A stretch of 62,978 nt of DNA, the filler included, from Streblomastix strix (Eukaryota): assembly GCA_008636045.1 (NCBI GenBank). It is 3 parts of 3 records of this genome, joined end to end, with 100 filler letters (N's around TTAATTAATTAA, not from the genome) between each part and the next. Parts side by side here need not be neighbours in the genome. Positions count along the whole stretch, not along the records: positions 42,060 to 62,978 come from SNRW01000408.1; 2 more parts are not named here. One strand, 5' to 3'. Under the pieces are notes generated by a model. The model was not told where the DNA came from. It searched no databases and saw only the letters and a program-made list of their open reading frames with translations. Positions 582 through 62,978 of the stretch are shown piece after piece (within the stretch, counting starts at the first letter, position 1; the number at the start of each line of letters is the position of its first letter). Both the position numbers and the translations under genes were made by a program.

Positions 582-703
582 CTTTTACATTCAATAAAAA
601 AATGAAATAGTTAAATAAATACTTAATGAAATATAAAAACGTTGAAAATTGGAAAAATCATTGATGAAAAAGCGATATTTTGACATGAGAAAACGACGCT
701 GAT

Positions 704-800
704 TATGAATGGCTTATGACTGGACCGAGTGTGGAACTGGACCGAGTCAAAAGCTACCACATAAAATGCCAGTCGATCCGCCAAATAGTCGAACCATGAA
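704..800 (+). repeat. Inter-module ~100-bp motif, copy 1a
   Basis: ACTGGACCGAGT twice (719-730, 736-747) followed by CAAAAGCTACCACATAAAATGCCAGTCGATCCGCCAAATAGTCGAA. Confidence 0.9.
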
Positions 801-850
801 AAAATAAATATTCCTAACCGTTAATGAATAGAACATAATTTTGTTATTTT

Positions 851-1165
851 TCATTAGTTCTATAATTGTATTCTTCGACTCTGTATATCAATTGGTAATT
901 TTTATTTTAAATATTCGTCATTTCTCAACGTTTCAAAATCTTATCTAAATTATCCATTTTTATCCGCTCCATAGCCATAATCAAGAAATGAGCTAGCAAC
1001 ATCTAAGACTTTGTCTATTGTTTAGCCGACAGGACTCAGTGCTCCAAGTATCGGTTTAGCAAATGGTTTTATGAACGGTTTATAAACGTTATCGTTAGCC
1101 CATTAAAGACCCTTCCCTACTTTTTAAACTAACTATTTGATTTTTGAAAACACTCCTACAGCCAT
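851..1165 (-). CDS. Small viral protein (104 aa) with N-terminal amphipathic helix
   Basis: MAVGVFSKIKQLVQKVGKGLQWANDNVYKPFIKPFAKPILGALSPVG...LQNQ-TGA; frameshifted homolog at 53597-53913. Confidence 0.75.
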
Positions 1166-6765: not shown

Positions 6766-9200
6766 ATGGCAGCTTCATAAGTAGAGTCAGTCAAAAATCA
6801 AACAAATGCAATAAACAACATATTATATCCAACTGAAATAACTGATGATATGACCGATGAACAAAAGAAAAAGAGATAAATTAACAAAATTTTATTAATT
6901 ATTCAATCAAATATATCAAATAATAATTCGAAATATAATAATGTAATTATTGGCGAACGTATCAAAGAAGCAATCACTCCATTATATAACTATAAGAAAC
7001 ATACGGATGGAAAAAAAGGAACAAAAACAGGTTAAACTGTTGATATAGGCAAATGTGATGAATAATTATGCGTAATGGATTTTGATATAAGGAAAGATTT
7101 AATGGATGAAAAAATATCAGAAATAAGAAATAAGATTATTGAAAATTTACCTTCTAATGTTGGACTCGTTAAGACTGTACATGGAGGCTTACATATATTT
7201 TTAGATAGACATAGATACACACTTAAAAATAATTCATAAATCAAAATCATTCATACTGAAAACTTTGATGTAGATATATTTGCTCATATCGATGAAAATT
7301 AAAGACTTGTAGTTCTTCCAAACTCAACAACCAGAGAGGAGAAAAATATGAAAAAAATAAATTTGAAATATTATGATTTAAATAATATGATGGAAAAAAA
7401 TAATATAGCAAAATTAGACGATATATTAGATATTTATGGTGATGATTTACGAGCCTAATTTGAAGAAGAGAAACCGATTATAAATAATGATGGTTCAATA
7501 AGAAAAATGAATTAAGAATTGGCTCATTTATTAGTTGATGGAATTTAACATTTATAGATACATAATGATGCTTAGAAAGTCGAACGAGAAATAACGTTAT
7601 TATGTTTAATTACATGATTAAATGGGCTTGCATTTGTGGATGGATTATCAGAAGATGAAATTAAATATTACGTTGATGATACTTATAACAAAGTTTAAGC
7701 AAAAAATAATTTAACTGATAATGCGATTCAAAATTGAGAGCTCAAATGGTCACGATTTTATTTGAAAGCTAATCCATGGGTTCTATAAAAGATTGTTAAA
7801 TATCATAATCCATAGTATAACATCGATATTATAAAGCCATATTTATAATCAAAGTTAAAAGAAAAAAAAAATAAATTAGTATATTTGGTATTGACTTAAG
7901 AGATGATTTTACACTCATAGATATATAAGAAAAAATATTTAATGGTGAATACAAAATGTAAAAATATAATTAAATTGCTTAAGATTTAACTCGAATTCTA
8001 AGACATTCACCTAGTCATGGCGGATTAGTATTTATCATCAAATAATACAATACAATAAATAAAAAAAATAAATTTGAATATATGACTAATACAGCTGCTT
8101 ATGATTAATTATAAATAGTAAAAATATGTGATGATGGATAGATGAAAATAACATTAAAATATATATTTGAACAATATAATTCTTTATTTGCTTTGAGAGG
8201 TATTAGATTTATAAGTGATGAACCGAAAATTTTCAGTATGTTTTAAGGCTATAAATATTAATAATTATCGTCGGTTAATGAAGACCTAATTAATGATTAT
8301 TTATTATTAATACATGAAACAATAGCAGCAGGTGATGATGATTTATATAATTATATTCTAAATTGGATTGCACTTATTATATAAAATGCAGGTGTAAAAT
8401 CAGAGGTGGCATTGATATTATAAGGTAGTTAAGGAATAGGCAAGAACAGATTTACAGATGTTTTATGTGAATTATTAGCTGGTTATTCAATTAAAAATAT
8501 TACAGATATTAGCAAATTTACAGGCCAATTTAATTCAGTCGTTGAAAATATAATTCTTGGAGTAGCTAATGAACTAAAAAATTTTGGAGAAGCGAGATAT
8601 TCAAACATGGATGCGTTGAAGTCAATAATAACAGATGATTCAATAAGAATAAATGAAAAAAATTAACCTCGCAGAACATCAGAAAATGTAATGAATTTGA
8701 TAATGGTAACAAATAACGATTTCTCCATCAAGATTGAAGCTAATGATAGACGTTATGTTGTATGCAGATGTAAGGCAGTCCATAGGGACGACGTTGAATA
8801 TTTTACATCTCTATCTAATAGCTTCACAACTGAATTTTACAATAATTTATTTACTTATTTTATGACCAGAAATATTGAAGGCTGGAATCAAAGAATCATT
8901 CCATTCACAGAAACGAAAAAGGACATAATTAGAGCTTCGCGTTCATAACTTGATGATGTAATCTTTTAAAATTATTAAGCGTTTAAAGAAGGTGTGCCTT
9001 GTAGTATTGCACTATAATTTAAACCATTCGATGTTAAAGAGAAATTATTCTAATTATAGCTCAAAAATAAATGTCAAAGAATTATAAAAACCATTAATGA
9101 AAAGCGAACATGGATTTATAAATTGAATGAAGATTTGATAAAATTATATGATAGATTAAGAGAAGAAGATCAAGATATCAATGAAGACGCTAACATTCGA
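6766..9200 (+). pseudogene. Primase-polymerase / SF3 (D5-like) helicase fusion
   Basis: N-terminal VMDFDI and KTVHGGLHIF prim-pol motifs; Walker A GSQGIGKN, Walker B region GVANEL, motif C IMVTNN, ANDRRY; in-frame TGA at 7615 and 7735, frameshift in poly-A ~7865. Confidence 0.85.
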
Positions 9201-9220: not shown

Positions 9221-9315
9221 TTCATGTTTCGACTATTTAGCGGATCGACTGGCATTTTATGTGGTAGCTTTTGACTCGGTCCAGGCCCACACTCGGTCTA
9301 GTCAAGACATTCATA
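9221..9315 (-). repeat. Inter-module ~100-bp motif, copy 1d
   Basis: Reverse complement copy: TTCGACTATTTAGCGGATCGACTGGCATTTTATGTGGTAGCTTTTGACTCGGTCCAGG. Confidence 0.9.
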
Positions 9316-9555
9316 ATCCAACCCATTTCTACGTGCCAATTTCATAAAATTCATCAATGTTTTGTCTCAATCCAATCAATCCAATCCATTAATGATTATC
9401 AAACAAATATATTTTATGTTCAATTTTATAATGGTTTCACTAACGAAGTCATCAACGAATTCACTAATAATTTTAGGTTTCCAAATATAATAAAATTTCA
9501 TTTGTTCAAAAATCATCAAACAAATTAATCAACTAATTCCATCAATCTTCCTATG

Positions 9556-43289: not shown

Positions 43290-43673
43290 TTGGAGCTTTC
43301 TGGATTAGAAAGATCTATAATTAAAAATAGAGGGAATGGGAATTGTTATTTCATGGCTGTGAGTCACTAACTGTATGGAACAAATATGCTGCATCGATAA
43401 ATAAGAGTTATTGCTGTAAAGGAGCTAATTGAAAATAAATAGAAGTATCAATAAGAATTTGATGATAGCAAATCATTGAAAGAATATGCTGATAAAATAA
43501 TCTGTGATGGTAAATTTGCTGACGCCAGAATTAACCTACCAATGTATCAATCACAAAAAGTGAATCTAAGAATCTATTTTGGTGAAAATCACTTTGAAAC
43601 TATCAACAAAAATGCTCAGAAATGGGTCGAAATAGCTTATGTGGACAGAATCCACTATGTAAGCGTTGTCTGA
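43290..43673 (+). pseudogene. OTU-family cysteine protease domain
   Basis: IEGMGNCYFMAVSHQLYGTNMLHRQIR ... IAYVDRIHYVSV (Cys and His boxes). Confidence 0.75.
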
Positions 43674-44845: not shown

Positions 44846-45073
44846 TAGGGCAAATAATAGCTTAGTTGATGAATGATCATTAATGGAAACCTAAAATTTG
44901 TTGAAGTTTCTTCGCTGAAATCAACCACAGCGGAGGTCTTACCAACCTTTTGAAATCTTTGTATATTTGAATATAAAATATGAATAGATATGTTTAAACT
45001 GCGTTAGATTGAGTAGATAGAATCATAAAACATCAAAGAAATCTATGCAATTGCCACGCAAAAATGTGATGAG

Positions 45074-45175
45074 TAATGCATGACTTTTGACCGGATCGAA
45101 AGAGATGAGATGACCGAGTCAAAAACTTCTATAGAAAATAGCTGCCCGACTGCCATTCTGCAAGAAGTGAGAAAT
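45074..45175 (+). repeat. Inter-module motif, copy 3a
   Basis: TAATGCATGACTTTTGACCGGATCG...GACCGAGTCAAAAACTT...GCTGCCCGACTGCCATTCTGCAAGAAGTGAG. Confidence 0.8.
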
Positions 45176-45196
45176 ATTAATAAAAATAAGTTTAAT

Positions 45197-47658
45197 TCAA
45201 ACGTTAATTGAACCATTAAGATCTTCATTAACGACTTAGTCTTCATCTCTTAATCTATCGTAAAATTGTACTTAATCTTCATTCAATTTATAAATACATA
45301 TTCGTTTTAATTGATCTATTTTCAAATTCATTGACATTTATTTTTTAATTATGACTAGAATGATTTCTCTTTAACATCGAATGATTTGAATTATAATGCA
45401 AGAGTACAAGGCACACATTCCTTAAACTATTGATATATTTATAAAATTTCATTATCAAGCTATGAACGTGATACTCTAATTATATCTTTTTTCGCATCTA
45501 TAAATGAAATAATTCTTTACTTCCAATTATTTATATATCTTGTCATGAAATAAATAAATGAATTATTGTAGAATTCGGTAATGAAACCATTTGATAGTGA
45601 TGCGAAGTATTCAACATCATCCCTATGAACTGTCTTTCATCTACATACAACATAACGCCTATCAGTAGCTTCAATTATAACTGGAAAAACGTTGTTGGTT
45701 ATCATTATCAACTTCATTACATTCTCCGATTTTCAACGCAGATAATTTTTTTCATTTATTCTTATTTGATTATCTGTTATTACTGACTTCATCGCATCCA
45801 TGTTCGAATATCTTGCTTTTCCAAAATTGTTAAGTTCATTGGCTATTCCAAGGATTATATTTTCAATGACAGAATTAAACTTACCCGTAAATTCATCAAT
45901 ATCTGTAATATTTTTAATTGAATAACCAGCCTATAATTCACATAAAACATCTGTGAATCTATTTTTGCCTATACCTTGACTGTCTTACAATATCAATGTC
46001 ACCTCTGATTTAACACCAACATTTTATATAACAAATGCAATCCAATTGAGGATATAATTATATAAATTTCCATCACCTGCTGCTATCGTATCATATTTTA
46101 AATTTAAATAATCATTAATTATGTCCTCATTAACAGAGGGTAATTATTAATATAAATGGCCTTAAAATATACTGAATATTTCAGGGTCTTGACAAATAAA
46201 TCTAATATCTTTCATCATAAATAATGAATTAATTTATTCGCAAACTTATTTCAATGATTTAATTTTTTAATTTTCTTTTCATAGAAGAGTCATCTATAAT
46301 TGTTCATATATTGCTGTATTATTCATGTATTAAATGTTATATTTTTATTTAATTGCATCATTTTATTTCACTATAAATGCTAAGCCACCATCGCATGGTG
46401 CACAATGTAATATTCCAGTTAAATTTTAAGCTACTTATTCAATCTTTTAATATACTTTATTTATTATATTTTTCTATATATTTAATAATGAAAAATTATC
46501 TTTTAAATCAATTGATTACTAATTTTTTTTTCTTCTTTTAACTTTGATTTTAAATAAAGCTTTATAGTATCGGTGTAGTACTTCGAATTAAGATATTTAA
46601 TAATCTTTTATAGAACCCATGGATTAACTTTCGAATAAAATCTTGACCTTTTGAGCTCCAGATTTTAAATTGCATTTTCGGTTAAATTATTTTATACCTA
46701 AATTTTGTCGTAAGCATCATAAAAGTATTATTTAATTTCTTCTTCAAGTAATCCATTCACAAATGCAAGTCCGTTAAGTCCTATATATAAGTATAATAAT
46801 GTTATCTCTTGTTCGATTTTCTGAGAATCGTTATGTATCTATAAATGTTTGATTCCATCAATTAATAAATCAACTAATTCTTTATTCGTTTTTCTTAATT
46901 TTCCATCATTCATTATAATCGACTTTACTTCTTCAAATTATGCTCTTAAATATATACTATAAATATCTAGGACATCATTTAATGTCGTAAAGTTCTTCTT
47001 TTTTTTAATATATTATTTAAATTTTCATATTTTAATGTTTTTCTTTGATTATTTTTTTAAGGCTTATATGTTGATTTCGGAAGTACTACAAGTATTTAAT
47101 TTTCAACGATATGAGCAAATATATCGACATCAAAGTTTTCAGTTTTAATGATTTTGATTTATGAATAATTTTTTAATGCGCATCCATCTCTATCTAAATA
47201 AGCATATAATCCTCCGTATGCTGTCTTAGCAAGTCCAACGTTTGAAGGAAAATTTTCAATAATTTTAATTCCTATTTCTTTTATTTTTTCATTCGATAAA
47301 TCTTTTTTGATATCAAAATCCATTACGTATAATTAATCATCACATTTGCCTAGATCAACTGCTGAACATGTCTTAGAACCTTTTTTCCATCGGTATGTTT
47401 CTAAAAATTATATAATGGAGTGAATTCATCTTAGATATGTTTGTCAATAGTTAAATTATTAAATTTCATGTTATTTTATGACATATATGTTTAAATAGCT
47501 AATAAAAATTTGTTAATTTATCTCTTTTTCTTTTGTTCATCGATCATTTCATCGGTTATTTCAGTTGGATATAACGTATTGATTATTTGACCAGTTCGGA
47601 TGGCTGATGGACTTTAATTGACGACACATCCGACAGATTCAAATTCTTTTGTTGCCAT
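45197..47658 (-). pseudogene. Primase-polymerase / SF3 helicase fusion
   Basis: Homolog of 6766-9200 (VMDFDI, KTAYGGL, QGIGKNRF, IANELNNF, TDRRY); frameshifted. Confidence 0.85.
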
Positions 47659-47777
47659 TTTATATGCTGTTAAAAAGTTGAAAAATATAAAAAAAATTTT
47701 TGAGTTTATTTTTAAATAAATTTAAATATTTATTATTTATATTTTTTATTTGACACAAGTTTATTTTTATTTATTTT

Positions 47778-47876
47778 TTTCACATCTTACAGAATAATAG
47801 TCTAGCAGCAGTTTTTGATGAAAATCTATGACTCGATCCACCCAATCCGCTCGGTCCAGTTAAAAGAAATTCATTA
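47778..47876 (-). repeat. Inter-module motif, copy 3b
   Basis: Minus strand TAATGAATTTCTTTTAACTGGACCGAGCGGATTGGGTGGATCGAGTCATAG...AAAAACTGCTGCTAG. Confidence 0.8.
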
Positions 47877-48278
47877 TCCTACCCAATTATGCGTTTTAAA
47901 ATCATGTACTTTTTTTATTGCAAAATTCGTGTTCATCAATAGTTCAAGATTTCGATTTAAACATCATTTTTGAATTCTACGCATTAACATTGAGTATAAG
48001 TAATATTCTTTAAGTTAAATTCAAATATTAATTTTTTAACTTATTTTTTAGCTTATTTTTTGGTTTTAATTAAGGACCCTATATAGAAATTAAAAAATAT
48101 TTAAAAATAAAAAAAAAATTACCTTTATTTCCATGAAATTTTAAAATCACCTGATAATCAAAAATACACACAATTCATATACGCTGATTCCGAATATGAC
48201 CTTTTTAGCTCAATCTGAAACGATTGATTAGGCTCAATTATCGATTTTATTTTAAATAAATAATTAATTATTTTTATT

Positions 48279-48887
48279 ATGATTAAAATGAAAAGTCCAA
48301 TCATTCCAGATGTAGAACCATAATTCGAAAAGGAAATTGAAGTGAATGCGATTATGATTGCAGTTGCATCTTAAATTGGTCCATTTCAGCAACCATTCCA
48401 GCAACCATTTCAGCAACAGGTCATTAGATATCAAACGCCATCTTTGTCAGCTAAGCGCAGAAGTTCAATATTTAAAGAAACATTAACTCTAGACCCATCA
48501 GTGTGTTGTTGGCTGTTGGATACCATTAGTGAAGATGAACATATGGTTAAAGAATCAGCACATTTCGTATTATCTGAAAATTAATTGGTTCTGGTTGTTG
48601 CTTACACTTTTGACGTCCAGTAAAGTTAAGTTCAATTAATTATAGAGTATGGAAGATGTTGTGGTAGGTTTTACAGCGATTCAATTTAAACATTAAATGA
48701 AATATTAATTGGGAACGTTAATGATCTGAAACTAGACGTCGAAAAAGTAAATTTATTAAGGGATAGCTATAAAATTTGTTTATAAAAAATAAAATAAATA
48801 ACAAGTATTTTAGATTTAGGAGAAATAAAAAGTAAAATTTTCAGTGCAGTATCTAAAGGATTAATGACAGTGATAAATAAATTTTGA
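48279..48887 (+). CDS. Conserved viral hypothetical protein (202 aa)
   Basis: MIKMKSPIIPDVEPQFEKE...QQPFQQPFQQ...GRCCGRFYSD...; open with Gln code; homolog of 5947-6516. Confidence 0.7.
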
Positions 48888-48919
48888 TATCATTAAATAA
48901 TTATTTTTATGTTTATAAA

Positions 48920-51723
48920 ATGGATTGAGATTTACATATGTTTGATGTAGTTTTAATTTATGATTATTTACTTTTTTGTTCAACTAGATATAACACTATT
49001 TGCTTAGTACAATAAGTCAAAGACATTGAAAATTAAATAAATAAAATTAATGATGCCCCATATCTTTATAATCGTGGAGAAATTGATGAAATGTAAGATA
49101 AAAAATTAAAAATTTTCGATTAAATTGATGCTTACACTAAATAAGAAGATGATACTCTGTTGCTGTTGAAAGTTAATAAAACTGAGCTCATTAATGCATA
49201 TTTGATAACAGAAGATGATGAGTTGTTAGCATTAAAATTAAATATTTCTGACTAAATTGATGCGTACAATAAAACTGAAGTCGATGCCCTACTCGACAAC
49301 AAATTAAATATAACAGATTAAATTGGTGCATATTCAAAAGCAGAAGATGATGTCTCTTATTGTTGAAGGTTGATAAAACAGATATTATCGATGCATATAC
49401 CAAGATAGAAACTGATGAAAAATTTGATTTTAAAGCTAAAATCGCAGATATTGTTGATAGTTATTCAAAGACTGAAGATAATGAATTAATATTATAGAAA
49501 ACAAATAAATCCGAATTGATAGATTTATATTCCAAGACAGAAACTGATACTAAATTGGATGAAAAAGTCGATAAAACTGAACTAGATGATTATGTTGCTT
49601 TGACGTCTGCTTAAACAATCAATGGTACGAAATAATTCAATTCAAATGTTAGTGCAGCAGCATTTGGGAAAACGGGTAAAATGATGCTTCTATTCTTCTT
49701 GCTGGTAATGGAAATATGTTAGTGAGTTCATTAGTAACGCAATCATAATTATAAGAAATTAAAGACATAGCGACTGGAAAATCAAAAGCGTATGTATATG
49801 ACACATAAAATGATTTGAATACATGGATGGATGATTAAGAAAATGTTGCAAAATTAGCCATGGTTCAGAATTTGTACATTATTGATAATGAAATTGTGGA
49901 TTTTTGGTGGTATAGAACTAATCTTCGAGCATTAGAAACAGAACTGCCAGATATGAGCAACGTCATGACCATTCTTGGAGCTGCTACAGGGGGAGGCAAT
50001 GCAATAACAGCTATATCAATTGATGGAAACACAATAATACCTACAATAAGTACCACATTTGTTACCACTGGAAAGGACCAATCTATTACTTGGATGAAAA
50101 CATTTACAAATATTATTATTACATATGGTATTCAATATTCAGGATACGATAATAACTCTGTTTTTCTTGCTGGTGATAGAGTTTGATCAATATCTGATAT
50201 AGCTTCAAAGGTTGATTTGTCTAATTATTTTGATAAAACTGAAACAGAATCTTTGCTCGAAGACAAAGCAGCTAAACAGCATTAAATGATTATATAACTT
50301 TAGGTACTTCGTAGAAAATAACAGCAAAAAAGATATTTAATAATAGTTGCTGATTTGTAAGTTCAATTGATGGAATGTCATCAATAACTGGTTCATCATT
50401 TATTAAATCAGGAACTGACAATACTGTTGTATTATTCGGAGCTAGAGGTACAAAACCAATAGCGGAGTTTGGTAGAGGAAGCATTAATGATTCGAATTAA
50501 GTGAAGAAAACTGGCTAAAATCAGTAAGTTATTAAAGGATTTACATGAAAGGATTATGAAGATAATGAAGAACCATCAGAAGTAGAAGATGATTGTATAA
50601 CTTGAGAATATGCGCAAAATATATTTATTGGTATATTGGGTAAATAATAAACTATCCATGGTTTAAAATATTTATTGAAAACATTAGAGTTGACCGATTC
50701 ATTAAATAAAATGGAACAAATTAATAAGTATTATTTGCGAATTGAGATTTTAAACTACTAGCTGAGTTCGGTAGTGAAAGTATTGATGATACAAATTATG
50801 TGAAGAAAACAGGATAAGCAACATAATCAATCGAAGGAAAATTAATTTGAAGTGGAATTATCGAAACATTTAGTGAAGCCAATATTTCAAAATAAATGTC
50901 TAAAGATTAAATTGCTGGAGGATGCGCACCTACAAATGGAGGAGGAGATGTTAATGGAAATATTACAATAGGAGCATATATAGCAACATCTGGGAATATA
51001 ATTTCTACATCTTTTATTAAAACTATTGGAACGAATCAACAGGTACTACTGGTGAATGGAACAACTAAACAACTCTCTGAATTCGGTAGTGGTGGAGGTG
51101 ATATTAGTAATTATGTTTAAAAAATAAGAGCAGATGTTTAAATTATTAATGGAAAACTAAGAAAAGGTGAAGATGATGATGAAGAATCTGATGCAGATGA
51201 TTATTTAACGAGAGGTAAATATAGTTTTAATACGAATAAAATTATAAATAAGTTTTATGTTTGAAAAATAAGGTAAAATTCATAAAACGTTAGAGGAACA
51301 CTATTATACGTTAATCCATTCGGTATCGAAAAATGATGATTCTCAAGAACTGACAGATCCCACTTATCCTACATCGCATGAAATAAATAATGTTATTACG
51401 TCAAAATTCTATAATTTCTATCAAATATTAACTTCACCAGTAATATTATCAGGATTTACAGCATCATAATCTAATTTCATAAAAATAGATGGAGTAATGT
51501 ATTTCTTTTATTTTGTTATCAAGCTAAATGATAGAATATAATCGTCACAAGGTCATGATATTGTACTTTTAATCCTCCACCATTATATTCACTATTTTGT
51601 CCAATGAACAATGATTACATGGCCATACTTATGACTGACGGATACGAACATTTTATTACATAATCAACAGTATGGACATAGAACGAAAATATTGTTATCA
51701 ATACATTTTGGTTTAGACTATGA
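48920..51723 (+). pseudogene. Repetitive fibre-like protein
   Basis: Homolog of 3049-5915 with a different module count; several TGA and frameshift lesions. Confidence 0.75.
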
Positions 51724-51789
51724 ATCTATGCTTCTGCATATAGTTGCTTGAAATTGTTTAGAATAATTATTTAATTTTGTTGAATATAA

Positions 51790-53383
51790 ATGTCGAACGT
51801 TTATATCGATGAAAGATTGTTAGATGCAGTTGGTTCATCTGAATTCCCAGAATTATACGCATATATCAAAGAACGTTATCCTAAACCTATTGGTGAATTA
51901 GCGCAACCTGTTCCAATTGGGGACCAAACTCTGCAATAGCAAGTGAAAAATATTGATGATATTATCTATGGTCAAGCGATAGCTCCAATGAAGTATTTGA
52001 ACCACTAGTGCGGAATATTATTATGAAACTTGATTTAAATTCGTAGCGGGAATGAAAAAGTTTCTTAGCATTTAGTGTTTGAGACCCATAATTAATCGTT
52101 TATGGCAATAGAATTACGCTAACGGCTTCATATGCAACAACAGATCTATTTCCGTACAGTTATTTATTCAAAACTTATCCCCTAGAAGCCAGACCTAAAT
52201 CAGGTGATTAAGTGATTGCATTAGTTGGAACCGAATCTCCTAAAACATATGTTATATTTTGTTATATCGACTAAAACGGACCTTATATTGTCAGTTCCCG
52301 ATAATTACCTTCAAATTCTGCACATGTATTTAATATTATTTATTATTAATAGTATGAATCATCAAAGAAAATAAATTATGAAGTGAATAGAAACGGAAAA
52401 ATAGACTTTATGGATACTTGCAATGTTAATGGAAAAGGAACATTTGAAGCATAATCATATGTCTATGAAACAGTAAAAAAATAGTCTGATTCAATCGAGG
52501 CAGGAGTGTAAAGATTAAATAGAACCAATTATTTGAAAAGTGAAATTAAATTAAGAGATGAATTAGCGATATATAAAGCAAATAGAGCAGCATATTTCAT
52601 TAAAGACGGTCCATTTATCGTATATAGCTTTGGAACTAAATTTGTATGTTAATTCTTACTAATTCTGAAGCACAATAAACTGTGTATAAAATATTCTCGA
52701 CAATCAGCAAAAAAGTACTACGACTAAATACGAAATATACGCCAATTCATGTAGAATAACAAAATTTTTCTGCTATGTGTTTGTTCAAGGATATGTATGA
52801 TAAAACATAAGCTGTATAGTTGGCCGTCAGTGGATAATTAAATACGTTGGATTGTGAATTTTAAGGAACTTATATACTTGATAATTACATGAACAGCACA
52901 AACACCAACGAGTCAGTATCTGAAGAACCCGAATCTCACATCGACGAAGTAATTATAAAACATGAAAAAATTTTAGGTTCATCACCACAACCACAATATA
53001 CGATAACTAATGTTTATAATCAGTTTATGATAAATGATTTTTTCCCCTCATCAGCATATAATACGTTTTATATCGTTGATGATTGCACTTGTAGAGTATG
53101 CGTATTCAATCTATATTTCGAATCAAAAGGTTTAGATGGGAGAACGTAAGAGGTTGGTCGTATTTCTGAATCTATATTACCATCTGATGGTAAAAGTTTA
53201 GGCTTCCCTGCGGCTGTATATAGAACAAAGGGCGGAAGATAGAATAATTTTTCAGTGAATTATTTTATTATAAATTCATAATTTAAAATGTTATACTTTT
53301 AATTATCAGAACCATAAGAGTCAATATCAACGGATTCAGCTGATGTTTATAAATAGTGTGCTAGTGGAATGTATTACTTGTGA
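51790..53383 (+). pseudogene. Viral ~530-aa protein
   Basis: MSNVYIDERLLDAVG...SGMYYL-TGA; homolog of 1386-2972, frameshifted. Confidence 0.7.
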
Positions 53384-53430
53384 AAAGCATTAATAAAAAG
53401 CATTGAATAGGAGCGATAATTTGGTTTGGT

Positions 53431-53530
53431 TAATGAATGATTTTTGACTGGACCGTGTGGATTGGGTGGATTGAGTAAAATGGGTTCTATGAAAAATACC
53501 AGTCGATCTGCCAAATAGTCGAAACATTAA
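53431..53530 (+). repeat. Inter-module motif, copy 3c
   Basis: TAATGAATGATTTTTGACTGGACCGTGTGGATTGGGTGGATTGAGT...CCAGTCGATCTGCCAAATAGTCGAAAC. Confidence 0.85.
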
Positions 53531-53596
53531 TAAAAAAATCATTTATTCAAATCTAAAAAAAAGCACATAAAATTTTATTTTTATTATAAATAAACG

Positions 53597-53913
53597 ATGG
53601 TGATTGACATATTCCATAAAATTTAGCAATTTGATTAAAAAATAGGGAAGTGTCTTTAACGGGCGAATGACAACGTTTATGAACTGTTGATAAAACCATT
53701 TGCTAAAAAAACTTCTAAGAGCTTTCGGTGCTTTCGGTTAAACAGCAGGTAAAAGATTTAGAGGATGCTTGTTCATTTCTTGATTATGGTTATGGTGCAG
53801 ATAAAAATGGCTAATTTAGATAAGATTTTGATATTTTCAGAAATGATGAATATTTAATATAAAAATTACTCATTGAAATACAAAGTCGAAGAATATAATT
53901 ATAGAACCAATGA
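53597..53913 (+). pseudogene. Small amphipathic-helix protein
   Basis: Homolog of 851-1165; frameshift ~53705. Confidence 0.7.
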
Positions 53914-53960
53914 AAAATAAAACAATTTATAAAAAAAAATAGCTAATTTATTTTTTATAT

Positions 53961-53995
53961 TTCATTAACTATTTGGCACGTTGGCATATTGTGAG
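53961..53995 (-). repeat. Inter-module motif remnant, copy 3d
   Basis: ACTATTTGGCACGTTGGCAT = minus-strand ATGCCA..GCCAAATAGT, at the position equivalent to copy 1a. Confidence 0.5.
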
Positions 53996-54187
53996 CAATT
54001 TTTAAGAATAATTGAAAATGTCCTCAGGATATGGGCACTCTGATCACTTTAAAGTCATTCACTATCTGCATTAATTCTTCGTACCAAAATCATGAACTTT
54101 TATGTTTCATTATCGAAGTTTCAATAACAGATTTTTATTTCATTAAGTATTTATTTAACTATTTCATTTTTTTATTGAATGTAAAAG

Positions 54188-55901
54188 ATGAATTGATTTC
54201 TAATAAAAACCACACATTTGCAACAAGAAGGAACCATTGAAGAAACATTATTAGGTAATCCGGTTGTTTTATTTATTAATGATGGCGAACATCATTATTC
54301 TATCATAGAAATTAAACTAGAATCGTAAAAACTAGCGTTGCTTGAAAAAGAAATAATCATTAGTTTATCAGATATAGGCCACGACTTAACATAGATTTAA
54401 AATTCATTCTTGTCAGTAGTGCTAACTGCTAATATTTAACTTGATGAAAAATTTGATAAAATTGACGAATCATATAAAGACGGATTGGATCTATTTGTAA
54501 GACCCAAATCAGGTTCAAATTTTGTTAGAAAATACACCATCTATCATAGTTGTAAAACCATTGATGGAAGTCTATAGAATGGTACAACAACCGAATTAAT
54601 TATTTATAACACAATCAAGCCAAAAAGTGAGAAAAATGGTAGAAAACATATATATTCCTTTTATGAGAATATTCATAAATTTGAAACATCAAAGTATGAA
54701 ACATATATAAATAAGCTAGAAATTGAAGCGCTAATAGGAAATTATGCATCTGTTCTATGTACAATTTTAATACTATTCAGAGTTAGCGTTCCAGTTGATG
54801 ACCTCTTGATATTCTCTGCCTTCACTGATTATCCTAATGGTCTATTTGATGATTTAAAAATAAAATTCGAAGTAAATCCTCATGCATTCGTTTTCTATTA
54901 AGTGAATCCTATTATTTCAATGGCTAAATATTAAACAATGAATAAAGATGAATTATTGGGTAGTAGTCAGTAGAAGCAAATGGATATTGATTTGATGTTA
55001 AGAAAATGGAGTCTGTCATTCAAATATATTAAATAATTTACACAGCTTGGATGCATCGTTGACTTGATAACAGGACTACGTACGGAACCATTAACTGAAT
55101 CAGGACTGAAGAACTTAGTTTGCGACATCAAACCAGTTACAATGAGCATAAAAAATTATGTCATTACCGAGGTAACAGCTAACATGACAGGTAATAATGC
55201 TACTGATATTTGTCTTAATCGTGTCCGATAATTCTACAGCTAACGTCCATTTGTTATCCCTGCCTAACTAGTAGAAATATGGCCATTTCCAACGTCTGCT
55301 ACATTAATTGGAATATGAATATCTTAAATTATTCATCTGTATCACGTAACCAACTTCTGTCTTCTATTTCCGAAAGATGCTAGAGCAACAACTTGCTTTG
55401 AAAATCCTTGCAATCAAAACATGTAAATAACCACCTGTGGTCGAAACTTTCCAAATATGCCTCTGAATAAGCTTGACCAATAATTCTTCCAATTATAACT
55501 CAATGCGTCAAATCTGGACCTGTTATTAGATACTACTGATGAATTTGAAAATGCTTTGACAACGCCTATTAAATACAGTTATTCGATGACTTAATCCTCG
55601 CACTGATTTAACATGCTTTTTGATAACACTTTAATGTGAAAAGAACAGCAATGGAGCATTAACTTTCGATGGATTAAACACTCAGAATCAGAACACTTCT
55701 ATCGAACTCAAATGAGAACCAATATATAAAGGAGCAACAGATTCATGCTATAATGTAAATACCAATGGAAAGAGACCACCACCACCGATTTTACATACGG
55801 TTCATGATACATTTTGGTTATACTCACCAGCAGCAGGTGGAAGCTGCATATATGAGACTAACCACTCGCTTGATAAAGTTATTGGATCACTTAGTTTTTG
55901 A
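54188..55901 (+). pseudogene. Candidate double-jelly-roll major capsid protein (~570 codons)
   Basis: Beta-strand-rich; KSGSNFVRKYTIYH, VSVPVDDLLIFSAFTDYPNGLFDDLKIKF pattern; size and context with ATPase and pPolB; internal TGAs. Confidence 0.6.
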
Positions 55902-56017
55902 GAACATTTTTGTTTTTTTATCTATGTATATAGCTAACATTTAAACATTAATAATAACTTTAACAAAATTGGTTAATTAGTTATATAGGTATTTTTTTTT
56001 ATTTTATTTCATAACAA

Positions 56018-56372
56018 ATGGCGTCGAATATGACTTCTGCACAAAACTTAATATGTTACACATTGACATAAGATAACGGAGTAATTATAGCTTAGAATGT
56101 TTAAAACGCTCAAATAAGTGGAGTAGGTTTTGCATTACTATACGTCTTTGAAAATTTTGATAATTAAAAAAAAATAATATTCTACTAATGCCACTACAAT
56201 AATGTAGGCTCTGATGCAAACATTTCTGTTCATAGTTCAATGGTTTAAGAAGAATAATATTTCGATTAATTTGTAGGTTATTGTAATGAATAACGTGTTT
56301 ATTAGCCTTTCATCCATCACAACCTCTACAGATATTTATACACATGGTTCCGTTAGAACTAAGAGTTATTGA
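56018..56372 (+). pseudogene. Small viral hypothetical ORF remnant
   Basis: MASNMTSAQNLICYTLTQDNGVIIAQN..., frameshifted. Confidence 0.35.
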
Positions 56373-56595
56373 ACATAAATTAATAGCTAAAATTTGTTCT
56401 TGAATTAATACTGAAATATTGATTTAAATTATTTATTTTTTAGGGACTTAATTTAATTCCTTGATTGACGTAGATATTTTTATTCAAATCATCAGTCCGC
56501 GCTATTGCCCAAATTTTGGCACTAAATTGACGTCGATATTTTTGTTTAATTAATTTTTAGAAATTGAATTTAATATTTTTTATTCGAACCTTTTA

Positions 56596-57475
56596 TCTCA
56601 TAAAAAATAGAATCAACTTCAACAACACAACAAATTACATTTAACAATGAAACTTTCACTCTTGCCTCTTATATCGGTTTTGAGATAGTGACTAAAGATA
56701 ATGATGGATATATCAATGGTTCAAAACTTGTTTCTTCAATAATTGAAAAAGAAAAAACAAAGCAAATAATTAAAGAAAATAGTTTAATCTCCGATGTTTA
56801 GAGAATACAAAGAACATATCTAAAATATTTGTTGAGCTTAATGAGCCTAACAATAATATGACTATTAATTTGGAAATTAATTTAATATTGAAACCGGAGG
56901 GACATATATTCATAAAGAATTAGTTAATGTGATATGTAAGAAAACATCAATAAAATATATCGAATATGTCCATTAATTCATGGATTAAATCAACAAAAGA
57001 ATACATTTAGAATATCAATTAGATGATTCAACCAGTATGGCCGAAAAAGCTTCTATAACATTTGATAGAGATATGGAAGAACGATAAGCATAAATAAATT
57101 AATTAAAAGAATAAATAATATAGAAAGAAAATGAAACTAAATAATTAGATACTAGTGCTGTTCCTGAAGGTTATTAATCAGATTATATATTCGCTGTTTA
57201 GGTAGAAGATGATGACAAAATCGACAACGCTGTCCTTTATACCAGAAGGAGAAACAAATATTGTACGAGTAAAAAATTAATGAAAGAGTTATAAGAATGG
57301 TTATTATTCTATGAAAAAATACTTCTAAATATATCAAAAGAATTATGAAATTATAGATAAATCAAAAAATTATTTTGGAGATTAAATATAATTTCATAAG
57401 TGCAGAAACATCTTTAAACCTGAATTGTCGAATGATTTCATTAATTTTATAAGACATATGATGGAAGACAAATGA
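56596..57475 (+). pseudogene. KilA-N domain protein
   Basis: FNNETFTLASYIGFEIVTKDNDGYINGSKLV and GTYIHKELV motifs, then coiled coil. Confidence 0.75.
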
Positions 57476-57871
57476 ATGACATAATTTTATTTAATTTTGA
57501 AGAAAATAAATGACAAGAATTTTGTTCGACAATAGAAAAAACAATTAATTCTCAAATTAATTCTCATCGAAATTGTAATTAGAATAAGATGAATATGAAA
57601 ATGTACCTCTCGAGGAGGGGGTCGAAGGAATCAAACAATTCATGCCATTTGAGAGCATAAATGATTTCAAATAATTTATTTCCTAAAATCAATAATAATT
57701 ATTTAAATTAACATCGTAAAAATTATATAAATTATTTAAATTGGAAAGCTATTAATTATCAAAAATAGAAGGTCAAGTATGCATAAGAACACGTGCTAAA
57801 GAATAATTAAACAGGATTGAAAATAAATTAGACAAGTTCTTGGATGTTTTGAACCATTTGGTTGAAGCATT

Positions 57872-57970
57872 TAATGAATGACTTTTGACTGCACCGAGTG
57901 CATCGAATGCATCGAGTCAAAAACTTTCAACAAAAACTGCTGCCAGCCTGCCATTCTGCCAGATTGTTAG
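57872..57970 (+). repeat. Inter-module motif, copy 3e
   Basis: TAATGAATGACTTTTGACTGCACCGAGTGCATCGAATGCATCGAGTCAAAAACTTTCAACAAAAACTGCTGCCAGCCTGCCA. Confidence 0.85.
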
Positions 57971-58009
57971 GTCGGTCTTCCGACCTCCGTCTGTGGCTCG
58001 TTTCAGATA

Positions 58010-58808
58010 ATTTTTACAACTGTTCCATTCATTTCGTATTATACTACTAATGCTTACTATTTGGTTAGTCATACTTATTCATACTAAATTGTTTCTTTAT
58101 CCGATGGAATCGAAGATTACTAAAAAATTTATTTAAATTTAATCTGTAAAATGAACATAAGAACCATAATGAATCAAGATTTAATTTAATTGCAGCGTCT
58201 AAACTAATGATGTCTTGCAAACAAAGGAAATAAGTTATTCTAGGCTATTAATTCTTAAATAACTTTTAAACGGAGTATTATTTTTATTTTTTAAATATAC
58301 TCATTGCATCGTCATATAAAACAATTGTATGAGGAAAATTAATGTTAAATTTACCGTATCCACTAACTCTAAACGCATTGGTTAATATATCTTCCTTTGA
58401 TTGTTCTGATAGTTCATTTTATTAGTATTTTTCTTAAATTTCATCATAAGCATATTTTCATTCTATCAAATCATTCAATACTTAATCTGCATCAGCATAT
58501 GGAATAATTTTTGTAAGAATTTTAATTAAATCGTTCAATTTTTTATAAGTGATGTCATTATTTGAGTCGCTGACGTAAATGAACAGTGTATAACATTGTT
58601 TTTTTTATTAGGTCAATTTTATTAACTCTTTGAAGACATTTTATGTCTTACCACTACCACACTAATCTATCAGTTAATTTATAGACTTATATGTAAAATT
58701 TAATTCCTTATGAAAAATTGTTTAAACTTCGTGCTTATTCACTTTTATTTCTTTTAACATATTATCTATTTTTTATTTTAAACACGCAATTTTTATATAA
58801 TGATTCAT
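58010..58808 (-). pseudogene. A32/FtsK-like genome packaging ATPase
   Basis: Degenerate Walker A INQLIDQCGSGKT (~58645-58685), Walker B HTIVLYDDA, PRITYFLCLQD; frameshifts. Confidence 0.75.
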
Positions 58809-58929
58809 ATTTTTTAACGATAAAAAATAAAATTGCGGAAGAAAAAATTTAATAAATTGAAAGAGAAGTAAAGATAGAATTTGAAATAGAAAGAAATAAA
58901 GGTTCAGGTAGATAACAAGGTGCAAGTTT

Positions 58930-59911
58930 GATGGAAGTTGATGGAATGGAGGATGATTACGATTATTATGAATTGCAAGCAGCAAGATAAGACAGAATGA
59001 AATCACGAGCAAAACCGTTTGGTAGGCTGCCGTTCCATCCATCAATGATTCAAAGAACAAGAAATAATGGAGGCACATAATTTAGAGAGGAGACAGGGAA
59101 TGTCCTTGCTATATCCAATGGTTATTTAAAGAGAGATTTTAAGAAAATTTATAGGTTACCGTCTGCCGTTAGTGCTCAAAAATATATAAATGATAAACAT
59201 TTAGGCAAATGATTTAGTGTTTATGACTATAGTTTTGATGATAATGAAGCTATATCAGACAATATGGTTGTTTATTATAAGAAAAGGAATGCAATTTATT
59301 CAGTCGATAGTTATACAACAGCTGTAGGATTTAGTGATCCAGATCATTAACTTGAAAGAAATTGGAAGAAATAATATTATACAGATGTTAATGATTTTGA
59401 ACAAGCATTATTGGCAGCCAAATTAAAACAATAAGGAACAAAAGGTGGACCTCACATGAAATGACTATCAATAACTAAGCCACATAAAGTAAAAGAAATA
59501 AAACTACATAGTCTCAGAGCATTCGCCGTCGATGCAAAAAAAATCATAGATCAAAATGGAAGTGCATAATTGCCAATGGCTACCAAATAACAAATAAAAG
59601 CATATATTTGGAATTCTGTATTTATTACTCCTGCTGTTGAAATACTAGAAAGATAAGACGGAAAAATTGACTTTTATAACAGATATAATAAAACAGATGT
59701 AAAATTAGGTGATTATAAATATTTGCCAATTGCTAAAAGAGTATGTAAGAAAGAAATTCCTACCGTTATTGCTTAATTATGTACTTATTAGCAGATTTGT
59801 AATAAAATTGCATAAGCTAACGCTCAAGAAATGTAGCATTAGGATAATAGTATAGTTTAGAGATTACAATAGATTTGTTGTTATGAGATAGTTAAATATA
59901 AGTTCGTTTGA
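58930..59911 (+). pseudogene. Viral hypothetical protein (~325 aa)
   Basis: MEVDGMEDDYDYYELQAARQDRMKSRAKPFGRLPF... one frame to TGA 59909 with two internal TGAs. Confidence 0.55.
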
Positions 59912-59929
59912 AACAATTAATTATTTTTA

Positions 59930-60033
59930 TTGATGTTTCTCATTGTTGGCAAATTGGCAGGCTGGCAGCAGTTTTTGATGAAAGTTTTTGACTCGATCCA
60001 CTCAATCTACTCGATTCAATCAAAATTCATTCA
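59930..60033 (-). repeat. Inter-module motif, copy 3f
   Basis: TGGCAAATTGGCAGGCTGGCAGCAGTTTTTGATGAAAGTTTTTGACTCGATCC...ATCAAAATTCATTCA. Confidence 0.85.
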
Positions 60034-60589
60034 CTATTCATACCATTTCATCGTCCAATTTTCGAATATTTCGTTGATGTTTTCTGACTCGAAATATTCG
60101 GAACAACCAATGTTCAAACTGATAGAACAGTCTATTAACATAATTATTTTATATTTTTATTTAAATAAATGATAGATAAATGTGGTTATAACTCGTAAAG
60201 AAGACGCATGCCTCCGATTGTACCTCCGATTACGCCACTTAATTAATCACTTAATTAATCACCTTACGAATTGCCTAGATAAACACAGTCATAATTGATA
60301 CAAATGTAGGACTACATTATATATAAATGCAAAATCGCAACTACCAGCCATCACCAGAATTATATATGGAACATCAACAATATTAACTGTCTTAAATGCA
60401 CGATTATATCGCGCAAATGCAAGCTCGTAATTACCAGTTATCACCTGAACTGCTACCAGAACAATACGAAACTAACGAAGTGCGAGTGGATCATCAACAG
60501 AATTTAAAATACTAAAACTAAAATCAAAAATAATAAGAGAATTAATGATTCTATATGACCCCAAAATTTAATAAAAAATAAATATTAAT

Positions 60590-62978
60590 GAATTGAGGTC
60601 ATAATTTTCATTAATTTTAGATAAAATTGATTTTAATAATGGTAGAAACAATAGGGATATTATTAGAAATGTAATATTTTAATTTAGACTATTTGCATAA
60701 AGAATCAAATATGATACTTAATTAGGCCTTCAAAATGAAGAAATAATAGGAAAAATTTAAGTTTAAAAATTTGTGCAAAGATAAAATAATCTTTAGAATA
60801 TGAGGATTTCGGACGAATAAAACATATAGCACAATTAATTCATTGATAAAATTAAGGAAGAATAGCGAGAAAAACATGCAATTTTATAAAGGAAATTTAA
60901 AAATAAAAAATAAATCATAAATTAAAAGAAAGTGCTGATGTGTTCAAGAGCGTTTAAGAAGAAATAGAAGAAGTTAATGAAGAGTATAGTGATAAGAATT
61001 ATAAACTATTTAACGTCCAATAAAATAAGATTATGTTATGCATACCACAATTGGAAGAAGAATATGAAAAAAATGAATTAGTTTCGAACGAAAATATATA
61101 TAAAATTTACATGTATAATATAACCCATTTTATGCTTAGACAATTAGTTCAACAAAAGAGTATTACAAAAACGATTTAAAAAACAATAGAAGATGTTGAT
61201 ACTTATTTAGATGAAATATATTAGCGTGAATATAAATTTGCGTTCAAAATTGAATTTGATTTTGGAGTTATCATTGAACAAGTCGATGGTTAAGAAAATG
61301 AATAATAAATAACGTATAAATTAATTCATCCCCTTGAAGTTAGAACAGAAATGAAAGCACCTACAACCATACGTACACATTTAGATTTAGCGGATTATAA
61401 ATGATTCATTAGAAACAACATCATCTTAATGCAAAAGCTAACTATTATGGGTACTAAAGAGAAAATAATAAGTATATTTTCAATAATGATTCAGATGTTT
61501 CGTCTTCTACACGCAGGAGCAGGTAGTCCAATAATACTTTTATTAAAGAAGCATATTATGATGCTTGAGATTCGATATATTGACCCTGAAAAATAATTAA
61601 AATTTTTGTTTCTTTCTAGCATATTCATTTATTACAATGCCAGACATCAAGGTGTATGTTGCTGCTGAAGGTTCCGCTATTGCTGCAAGGCGTTATAAGG
61701 AACATTCACGAATTGCAGAAGCTAAACGAATAATTTAAAGATTTTATGACAAAAAAATTGATGACAGTTTTCAAGGGTTTAGTTGTGCAGCAGAAATAGA
61801 TTAGTTTGTTTAGAATGAAAATTTAAATATAAATGTGTTAATTAACGAAGCATCATTAGAAAAATCAAATGATTTATCTGCAAATTCAAGAGCCAATTGA
61901 ACAGCAGAAATCGGTAGTTATTATTTATGGAAGCAGTACGGAAGAAGTGAATTGAACGAATAAACTAAAGAATTTAATATTCTTTTAATTATTAACACAA
62001 TCAACGAACTACAAATAGCTCATGATTTTATATAAATGAAGTTGAGGCACTGACTGGTTAAAAATATTGCCCTATCTGCGGAATGTAGGCTTATAAGATC
62101 AGATATTCAAATTTATAATTAAAGCTAAAAAGACACTTGTAAAAAATGTTAAAAAAATGTTGAAAAGATAGTAAAAAAAATATTTATAAAAAAATTTCCA
62201 AGACTTTATGTTCCTCATATATTGAATAATGTTAGCTACAAGTATCTTCTGGCCCATTGTCGAGAAGATGAATTCAAACCTACAAAATATTATATAACAT
62301 ATGATACTGAAACCGCTGAAAGAATCGTTAATGAATAATTCGGTGATAATTCAAAACATATTTCAAAACTAAAACAATTATCAATAGCGAGTACAATAAA
62401 AATAAAAAATAAAAAAATCGACTAAATTTATTCTATTTATTTTGACATACGAACCCCTAACTTTATTAATGTGTGGATTAAATAATTGTTTAATGAAGCC
62501 GGAAAAGTTATTGATTCAAACAAATATGAAGACGAGTCGATACAATATCATTATAAGTTACCAATTATTAGCTTTAATTCTTCAAAGATTGATGTTGCAT
62601 TAATTCTTAAAAATTTTTAAAGCGATGAGGGGCAAATAATTAAATATCTTGGTAGGGGTTCAAACGTTAAATAACTAGTTGTTAAACAAAACATATTTGA
62701 AATCAAATTGCAGTTCATTGATGCTATGATTTATTGTACAAAAATTAAATTAAAATAATTCAAAAAAGGTTTCACTTCTAAAACAACGTAAAGCATTCCA
62801 GAGAAGTTAAAGCTTCCATGAGAATTCATCAATTACAACAATTATAATGAGATAATGAATAATTCTTAGCTATTTCTGATAGAAACATTAAATAATGAAA
62901 TTAAAAATAAAAATATATGTCAAGTGAAATATTAAAATTATTAATCAATTGCTTAGCTACACACAAAATGTAGGGATT
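60590..62978 (+). pseudogene. Protein-primed family B DNA polymerase, N-terminal and exonuclease part (3' truncated; 5' boundary approximate)
   Basis: FAFKIEFDFGVII, KYCPICG, Exo I YYITYDTET (~62290), Exo II IISFNSSKIDVALI (~62570), LQFIDA; multiple frameshifts. Confidence 0.8.

What the first reader, a model, noticed from the sequence alone, without database searches (positions are those of the whole stretch)
45074..60033. Motif halves co-vary with the module they touch (chimeric motifs suggest crossover at the centre)
Seen: the left halves facing the fibre cluster match each other (GGATTGGGTGGAT in 3b and 3c; TTTTTGTCTGG in 1b and 1c). The right halves match across the module they face: 3a/3b share TTCTG(C/T)AAGA(A/T)GTGA around the helicase; 3e/3f share ACTGCTGCCAGCCTGCCA around the ATPase. 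Copy 3c joins a 3b-like left half to a copy-1-type right half (CCAGTCGATCTGCCAAATAGTCG). The orthologous helicase is flanked by one right-half type in contig 1 and another in contig 3. Inference: each module keeps its own homogenised ends and modules reassort.
Basis: partly seen in the sequence, partly recalled or inferred. Interest (0 to 1): 0.82.

Follow-up and report, generated by a model that had tools for sequence, protein, structure and literature searches.

The report
Patchwork repeats bordering viral gene blocks
In a Polinton-like virus present in many copies in the genome of a termite-gut protist, a roughly 100-base repeat sits in alternating orientation between gene blocks and differs more between virus copies than the DNA beside it, likely because repeat copies overwrite each other by recombination, which would only now and then flip or swap a whole block.

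Summary
The window is three joined contigs of Streblomastix strix (code 6). Contigs 1 and 3 hold collinear copies of an endogenous Polinton-like virus. All five quoted strings are there, in ten copies of a ~100-bp repeat that strictly alternate in orientation between gene blocks. The repeat is mosaic, but its halves do not reliably track modules. 3b and 3c share the centre, not the left part. 3c/3d and 3d/3e do not match, and one right-half type serves four sites. 3c's right half is the orthologue of 1b's, and public contigs show it is a common form. Contig 1 is the odd one: its four copies are homogenised (87-100%), while orthologous copies are 57-65% alike between flanks 76-91% alike. Neighbouring genes mostly descend together: 16 of 16 capsid/ORF530 pairs share a subfamily, and 2 of 42 fused gene models look swapped. 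Three contig joints and one gene model show the small block inverted at the repeats, but amplification chimeras could mimic this. Best reading: a dispersed repeat, like baculovirus homologous regions, rewritten by ectopic conversion, with rare inversion or exchange. No recombinase was found.

The parts
45072..45170 (+). Repeat 3a (left arm, 3 x 9-mer centre, spacer, right type 3); a weaker left extension runs about 40 bp further
45230..47660 (-). Primase-helicase gene, broken (D5/NrS-1-like; PF19263, PF05272); ends approximate
47780..47878 (-). Repeat 3b (centre of the GGATTGGG type, right type 3)
48270..51780 (+). About 200-aa ORF and fibre-like repeat genes (22-aa repeats), broken; 'fibre' is inferred from the repeats only; ends approximate
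51790..53383 (+). ORF530, unknown function, broken here; 146 homologues, best 120 listed all S. strix
53429..53527 (+). Repeat 3c: 3b-like centre, family-common spacer, right type 1; orthologue of 1b
53597..53915 (+). Small ORF (104 aa in contig 1, amphipathic-looking N-terminus), frameshifted here; the block seen inverted in some contigs
53967..54066 (-). Repeat 3d, the most diverged copy; orthologue of 1a
54188..55910 (+). Major capsid protein gene, broken; 215 homologues, best 120 listed all S. strix; Atlas neighbours are Preplasmiviricota and capsid clusters
56018..57881 (+). Three further ORFs of the capsid block, one with a weak KilA-N hit (E 0.00085, below the curated cut-off)
57870..57968 (+). 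Repeat 3e (right type 3)
58030..58790 (-). Putative packaging ATPase, broken; Walker A/B-like words recognised from recall, no library hit
58870..59911 (+). ORF of about 350 aa with two in-frame TGA breaks, divergent from the ATPase; 42 homologues, the 20 looked up all S. strix; no family hit
59940..60038 (-). Repeat 3f (right type 3)
60450..62978 (+). Putative protein-primed DNA polymerase, broken and cut by the contig end; exonuclease-like words recognised from recall, no library hit
701..798 (+). Repeat 1a (contig-1 centre and spacer, right type 1)
850..1164 (-). Small ORF, intact, 104 aa
1242..1339 (-). Repeat 1b
1386..2972 (-). ORF530, intact, 528 aa
6581..6678 (+). Repeat 1c
6766..9200 (+). 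Primase-helicase gene of contig 1, frameshifted
9223..9320 (-). Repeat 1d

Best explanation
The motif is a ~100-bp repeat placed in alternating orientation between gene blocks of an endogenous Polinton-like virus of Streblomastix strix, and its copies are likely rewritten piecemeal by ectopic gene conversion, which would homogenise copies within an element and mix centre and right-hand types while usually leaving the flanking genes in place. Shown: the anatomy (imperfect palindromic arms around three 9-mers, a spacer, then about three TGCCA-type 8-mers), the alternation, within-element homogenisation, low identity at orthologous copies, mixed part combinations, and mostly congruent neighbours. 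Inferred: that the repeated 9-mers and 8-mers are protein-binding sites of an origin or enhancer like baculovirus homologous regions; that inverted neighbours pair on the displaced single strand during strand-displacement replication, which would favour conversion between them; that adjacent direct copies are purged because they would delete a block, giving the alternation; and that an occasional crossover inverts a block or swaps it between elements.
For: (1) Contig-1 copies are 92% (centre), 100% (spacer) and 87% (right) alike; orthologous contig-1/contig-3 copies are 65, 60 and 57%. Flanks on both sides stay orthologous: non-coding 89% and 89%, genes 76-91%, against 47-65% in the centre plus spacer. 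So the repeat was replaced and the blocks were not. (2) Of 3019, 53 and 159 contigs of one sample laid on 480-1700, almost none cover contig 1's left arm, centre and spacer: summed depth is 186-2158 in four bins against 14,000-433,000 in the other 26 (run X1). 43 contigs join right type 1 to the 3c-type spacer and a 3e-type 9-mer; one carries a whole 3c-type repeat at the 1a position; four (one in X2, three in X3) carry right type 3 at the 1b position. (3) Capsid and ORF530 fall in the same subfamily in 16 of 16 contig pairs. Small ORF and neighbour agree in 39 of 42 classifiable fused gene models. (4) Control: ORF530 correlates better with the small ORF across a repeat (r 0.76, 261 pairs) than with the fibre part inside its own block (r 0.32, 343 pairs). 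(5) Rare crossovers: P0184 and P0197 pair a distinct ORF530 with an A- or C-type small ORF; 3 of 5 opposite-strand joints lie at both block edges; P0125 reads from ORF530 into the antisense small ORF.
Against: No function was tested; the origin or enhancer role rests on analogy. The palindrome is weak: 3 of 7 copies fold at z of -2 or lower. Inverted pairs are only slightly more alike than direct pairs (74% against 70%; 13 and 8 pairs), so the strand-pairing step has little support. Among contigs that bridge a repeat unambiguously, 3 are inverted and 4 standard, which is more inversion than 'occasional' implies if they are real. Contig 1's spacer has no cover at 756-762 in run X1, so the homogenised state rests on the window's assembly. 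Within subfamily A one contig (c7482) changes place between the two trees with 97% support. The within-block control uses noisy spliced gene models.
Confidence: 0.55

Rival explanations
1. Cassette or shufflon system: the repeat is a dedicated recombination site, crossed near the end of the 9-mer array by a site-specific recombinase, so that blocks invert and are exchanged routinely.
For: Strict alternation in 10 of 10 copies. Inverted arms around an asymmetric centre. Three joints and one gene model with the small block inverted at the repeats. Two swapped pairs. Subfamily C has a B-like capsid (62-78% identical) but a distant ORF530 (45-56% to A and B). L001 leaves the element at the end of the third 9-mer.
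Against: No recombinase or integrase in the window's ORFs, though the element is cut by contig ends. The centre, where a site should be constant, is among the most variable parts. Contigs 1 and 3 keep the same order and orientation over five blocks. 34 of 36 gene models that include the small ORF and a neighbour show the window's order and strand (biased, since antisense exons are rarely called). Ends are not block-specific.
Confidence: 0.2
2. The repeats are ends or remnants of small mobile insertions (MITE-like, or terminal repeats of pack-type elements that carried helicase, small ORF and ATPase into the virus backbone).
For: Right parts face inward in pairs around three blocks. A 12-16-bp AT-rich word before the left part matches the word after the same copy's right part better than other copies' (permutation p 0.0007-0.02), as a target duplication would. 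Loose ends show right type 1 followed by other sequence, or by a new left part.
Against: The windows for that test were chosen after seeing the match; only 4 of 10 copies (3 independent sites) show it, in AT-rich DNA. Inward pairs are not more alike in their left parts (68% against 76%), and 3c/3d do not match. The enclosed genes mostly descend with their neighbours. No empty site was seen.
Confidence: 0.13
3. An ordinary regulatory motif that drifts; the inversions, and perhaps the homogenisation, are artefacts of whole-genome amplification and assembly.
For: Contig 2 is a 10.3-kb near-perfect fold-back (6 mismatches in 10,289 bases, all next to the loop), and P0217 is a fold-back gene model, so the data hold inverted chimeras. 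Inverted repeats are sites of template switching, and inverted chimeras are common in multiple displacement amplification (PMC9484634, passages). All laid contigs come from one sample; 2 of 5 opposite-strand joints are not at repeats; no record spans both ends of an inverted block.
Against: Drift does not explain why orthologous copies are less alike than the non-coding DNA beside them while paralogous copies are 85-92% alike. The contig-1 copies differ by substitutions, unlike a collapsed repeat. Orientation is unrelated to transcription (copies lie between divergent, convergent and tandem genes), which a simple promoter or terminator would not give. This rival may well explain the inversions alone (about even odds).
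Confidence: 0.12

Closest known systems
Endogenous Polinton-like viruses / Maverick-Polintons of the Metamonada group (PMC10120064, passages and section 6)
   Same: Host S. strix, genetic code 6, capsid gene with a primase-helicase and a likely polymerase and ATPase, many integrated copies; helicase relatives in Trichomonas vaginalis, Monocercomonoides and Histomonas.
   Different: The passages read describe terminal inverted repeats only, not internal repeats between gene blocks. No integrase or tyrosine recombinase was found in the part held.
Baculovirus homologous regions (hrs) (PMC4758234, passages)
   Same: Dispersed intergenic repeats with an imperfect palindrome of about 30 bp, some as singletons, highly variable between genomes, tied to recombination of the regions they flank.
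   Different: A different virus group; strict alternation of orientation; a second array of 8-mers; origin and enhancer roles untested here.
Shufflons and site-specific DNA inversion systems (recalled, e.g. the plasmid R64 shufflon and phage tail-fibre invertases)
   Same: Segments bounded by inverted sites; both orientations of one block seen in contigs.
   Different: No recombinase found; the site is long and variable, with no constant core; crossovers would fall between genes and not swap protein ends.
Endogenous mavirus-like elements (EMALEs) of Cafeteria burkhardae (PMC8547959, passages)
   Same: Endogenous Preplasmiviricota with type-specific intergenic motifs and a documented exchange of the morphogenesis module.
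   Different: Their motifs are short promoter words upstream of genes; here a 100-bp repeat lies at either end of genes regardless of transcription direction.

Membership tests
Polinton-like virus / Maverick-Polinton EVE | Major capsid protein of Preplasmiviricota type | tested here: met
   Atlas feature hits at 0.96-0.98 to Preaxostyla, Parabasalia, Preplasmiviricota and capsid clusters. The fold model was unusable (pLDDT 34).
Polinton-like virus / Maverick-Polinton EVE | Replication gene (primase-helicase and/or protein-primed polymerase) | tested here: met
   Helicase: PF19263 E 1e-18 and PHROG primase families. The polymerase rests on recalled motifs only (no hit).
Polinton-like virus / Maverick-Polinton EVE | Packaging ATPase | tested here: inconclusive
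   Walker-like words in a broken ORF; no library hit.
Polinton-like virus / Maverick-Polinton EVE | Integrase (rve) or tyrosine recombinase | tested here: inconclusive
   None among the ORFs scanned; both elements are cut by contig ends and are degraded.
Polinton-like virus / Maverick-Polinton EVE | Terminal inverted repeats and target duplication | not testable with these tools
   Only one end of each element lies in the window; no genome was held.
Baculovirus-type homologous region | Dispersed intergenic repeat with an imperfect palindrome | tested here: met
   Ten intergenic copies with TTTTGAC/GTCAAAA-type arms; 3 of 7 folded copies reach z of -2 or lower.
Baculovirus-type homologous region | Acts as replication origin and transcriptional enhancer | not testable with these tools
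   Needs a bench assay.
Baculovirus-type homologous region | Lies in a baculovirus genome | tested here: not met
   The element is Polinton-like. It is an analogue, not a member.
Shufflon / site-specific inversion system | Segments bounded by inverted sites | tested here: met
   10 of 10 copies alternate.
Shufflon / site-specific inversion system | Cognate recombinase | tested here: inconclusive
   None found in the incomplete elements.
Shufflon / site-specific inversion system | Constant short crossover core | tested here: not met
   The centre is 46-89% alike within contig 3 and 65% between orthologues.
Shufflon / site-specific inversion system | Both orientations of a segment in the population | tested here: inconclusive
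   Three joints and one gene model, one junction each; amplification chimeras not excluded.
TIR transposon / MITE | The two ends of a unit are each other's closest copies | tested here: not met
   3c/3d are 56% alike over the core; 3a is closer to 3e and 3f (73%) than to 3b (67%).
TIR transposon / MITE | Target-site duplication | tested here: inconclusive
   Weak own-copy match of AT-rich flanking words, post hoc.

The most novel reading that the evidence does not exclude
A eukaryotic DNA virus built as a cassette array: every functional block (replication, fibre, small virion protein, capsid, packaging) is bounded by inverted recombination sites, so blocks flip and are exchanged among the many endogenous copies, a viral shufflon that would let a degraded provirus population reassemble working genomes.
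Probability: 0.2. Interest if true: 0.85.

Novelty: new variant of a known kind. Interest (0 to 1): 0.55.

Why it matters
Module exchange in Polinton-like viruses and virophages is documented (PMC8547959, passages), but the passages read name no cis-acting site for it. Here an internal repeat marks block borders, evolves in concert, and coincides with the junctions of candidate inversions. That gives defined sites at which to test how such modules are swapped, and whether a small DNA virus uses hr-like origins. The virus family itself is already reported from S. strix, and the strong form of the claim (module-specific ends, routine reassortment) is not borne out, which limits the score.

Tried and rejected
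NO FURTHER DNA COPIES. No whole genome is held. Pattern scans found 0 matches in viral contigs, metagenome contigs and prokaryote genomes. The capsid alignment found 0 of 187 candidates in viral contigs and 1 of 439 in metagenome contigs (L001), whose record could not be searched further.

COVERAGE OF THE PROTEIN TESTS. Only the best 120 of 215 capsid, 146 ORF530 and 165 helicase hits were listed. One ambiguous set (contigs of length 1774) was left out. Only one further contig linked the helicase to capsid and ORF530 (tags 49, 51, 54), and one linked the 350-aa ORF to ORF530 (tags 12, 16); both fit the window's order. Contigs were laid on the 1a-1b stretch only, so 3a-3f have no such check.

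OTHER BLANKS. No RNA holder was listed. Capsid structure prediction failed and was not searched. Rfam gave 0 matches on 45000-60200. The 350-aa ORF has no Pfam, PHROG or Atlas hit, so it could not be shown to be a recombinase. Three look-ups of earlier findings were empty.

REJECTED READINGS. Simple promoter or terminator: orientation does not follow transcription. Polydnavirus-type segment junctions (recalled as direct repeats): neighbours here are inverted. P0107 as a swap: its small ORF is a further type, and its divergence fits the faster rate of that gene. Fused gene models as proof of fixed orientation: they are biased to same-strand neighbours.

LITERATURE. Ten searches listed no description of these repeats. 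Most subscription papers are not in the library, and the supplements of PMC10120064 were not read and may bear on the element's gene content.
Full report
WHAT THE WINDOW IS. Three contigs are joined by N spacers: 1-20931, 21032-41959 and 42060-62978. Genes read under table 6. The best 120 of 215 capsid homologues and of 146 ORF530 homologues are all Streblomastix strix proteins. Contig 1 (2-9807) and contig 3 (from about 44.6 kb to 54767) are collinear, inverted copies of one element at 70-80% identity. The element has a capsid protein whose Atlas neighbours are Preplasmiviricota and capsid clusters, a D5/NrS-1-like primase-helicase, fibre-like repeat genes, and broken ORFs that look like a packaging ATPase and a protein-primed polymerase by recalled motifs only (no hits). 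Endogenous viruses of this group in S. strix, using the host's code, are reported in PMC10120064 (passages and section 6).

THE REPEAT. There are ten copies, four in contig 1 and six in contig 3. One pattern finds 7 of them, with none in contig 2 or in 20 simulations. Each copy has a left arm ending in a TTTTGAC-like word, three direct 9-mers of the TGGAYCGAG kind, a 22-bp spacer starting with a TCAAAA-like word, and a right part with about three TGCCA-type 8-mers. The arms form an imperfect palindrome; 3 of 7 folded copies reach z of -2 or lower. Orientation alternates in all ten (chance 1/256). It does not follow transcription: copies sit between divergent, convergent and tandem genes, and the 3e-3f block holds two divergent genes whose 3' ends both face a right part.

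CHECK OF THE OBSERVATION. All five strings are present, and 3c is a mosaic: centre 89% to 3b, right part 87-90% to contig-1 copies. But the 3b/3c match is in the centre; their left parts are 75% alike, and the left-facing pairs rank 27 of 45. 3c/3d (57%) and 3d/3e (57-70%) bound blocks and do not match. 3a is as close to 3e (80%) as to 3b (77%). All four contig-1 right parts are alike whatever they face.

ORTHOLOGY CHANGES THE READING. 1a/3d, 1b/3c, 1c/3b and 1d/3a are orthologous sites. At 1a/3d and 1b/3c both flanks stay aligned: non-coding DNA is 89% alike and genes 79-91%, while centre plus spacer is 47% and 65%. Within contig 1 the copies are 92, 100 and 87% alike in centre, spacer and right part, against 65, 60 and 57% between orthologues. 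The repeat was overwritten while the blocks stayed. 3c's right part is simply shared with 1b.

PUBLIC CONTIGS (three runs of one sample, library not on record; 3019, 53 and 159 contigs laid on 480-1700 at 80% likeness). In run X1, summed depth is 186-2158 in four bins over the left arm, centre and spacer, against 14,000-433,000 in the other 26; depth is not a copy number. 43 contigs run from right type 1 into the 3c-type spacer and a 3e-type 9-mer, so 3c's spacer and right part are a common form and contig 1's spacer is the rare one. One X2 contig carries the 3c pattern at the 1a position. One X2 and three X3 loose ends show right type 3 at the 1b position. Other loose ends show right type 1 followed by other sequence or by a new left part. 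L001 has the 3b/3c centre upstream of a capsid gene and leaves the element at the end of the third 9-mer, into what looks like a host glycoside hydrolase gene (label recalled). Parts are therefore mixed, with a recurring break at the centre/spacer border, and types are not tied to blocks.

DO BLOCKS REASSORT? Capsid and ORF530, separated by two repeats, fall in the same subfamily (A, B or C, support 99-100) in 16 of 16. One A member moves within A with 97% support, and C has a B-like capsid but a distant ORF530, which may be an old swap or a rate difference. In spliced gene models that fuse the small ORF to a neighbour, 39 of 42 classifiable agree. Of the three others, P0184 and P0197 look like real swaps and P0107 does not. 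As a control, ORF530 correlates better with the small ORF across a repeat (r 0.76) than with the fibre part in its own block (r 0.32), though that control is noisy. Order and strand match the window in 34 of 36 models that include the small ORF and a neighbour, a count biased to same-strand cases. Exchange across the repeat occurs but is rare, and is not shown to be concentrated there.

INVERSION. Of 15 listed joints (one more not shown), 5 change strand. Three (645/1240, 602/1206, 836/1371) sit at both edges of the small block, as an inversion predicts; chance is about 4e-5 to 7e-5 with windows set after the fact. Four other contigs bridge a repeat in the standard orientation and four are ambiguous. 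Independently of the laying, model P0125 reads from ORF530 into the antisense strand of the small ORF from its 3' side. Each record shows one junction only. Template switching at inverted repeats makes the same junction (PMC9484634, passages), and this data set holds fold-backs: contig 2 is a 10.3-kb inverted duplicate with 6 mismatches. I put real inversion at about even odds.

MECHANISM. Most likely (0.55) the repeat is a cis-acting array, by analogy an origin or enhancer like baculovirus hrs (PMC4758234, passages), whose copies are patched by ectopic conversion, with occasional crossovers that invert or swap blocks. Homogenisation, mosaic parts and mostly congruent neighbours are shown. The function, the single-strand pairing route (inverted pairs 74% against direct 70%) and selection against adjacent direct copies are inferred. 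Rivals: a dedicated cassette system (0.2; no recombinase found, and no constant core); mobile-element ends (0.13; weak post hoc flanking duplication); drift plus artefact (0.12).

NOVELTY. The virus group is known. Ten literature searches listed no account of internal alternating repeats in it. I read passages of PMC10120064, PMC8547959, PMC12721341, PMC4758234 and PMC9484634, and saw the others only as listings. Interest 0.55.

Noticed in passing
window 21032-41959: Contig 2 is a 10,289-bp inverted duplicate around a 350-bp loop, with 6 mismatches all next to the loop; it holds host genes (RRM, LRR, FHA). Probably an amplification fold-back.
   Followed up: partly
window 850-1164 (-) and 53597-53915 (+): The 104-aa ORF has an amphipathic-looking N-terminus, reminiscent (from recall) of adenovirus protein VI; conserved in at least four subfamily types.
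   Followed up: partly
window 9555-9594 and 9767-9806: A 40-bp inverted repeat (80%) at the point where homology between the two elements ends; could be part of the element's terminus.
   Followed up: no
L001 1767-1830: Right after the 9-mer centre comes a different short repeat array (two 22-bp units), possibly a further right-part type or another element's end.
   Followed up: partly
window 7719-9188: Only 1 of the best 120 helicase hits is over 62% identical, whereas many capsid and ORF530 hits exceed 70%; the helicase block of this type may be missing from many copies.
   Followed up: no
laid stretch, joint 1385/1371 in run X2: The letters between the two sides read as a repeat copy with only two 9-mers, so unit number may vary; the geometry of the joint is not given.
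   Followed up: no
P0188; joints 956/1442 and 978/1444: A gene model with the small ORF upstream of ORF530, and two opposite-strand joints away from the repeats; unexplained rearrangements or chimeras.
   Followed up: no
window 42262-42864 and 43152-43673: A DDE_1 transposase fragment and an OTU-like protease fragment lie just outside the element in contig 3.
   Followed up: no
window 47876-48234: About 350 bp between 3b and the first fibre-block ORF have no counterpart in contig 1.
   Followed up: no
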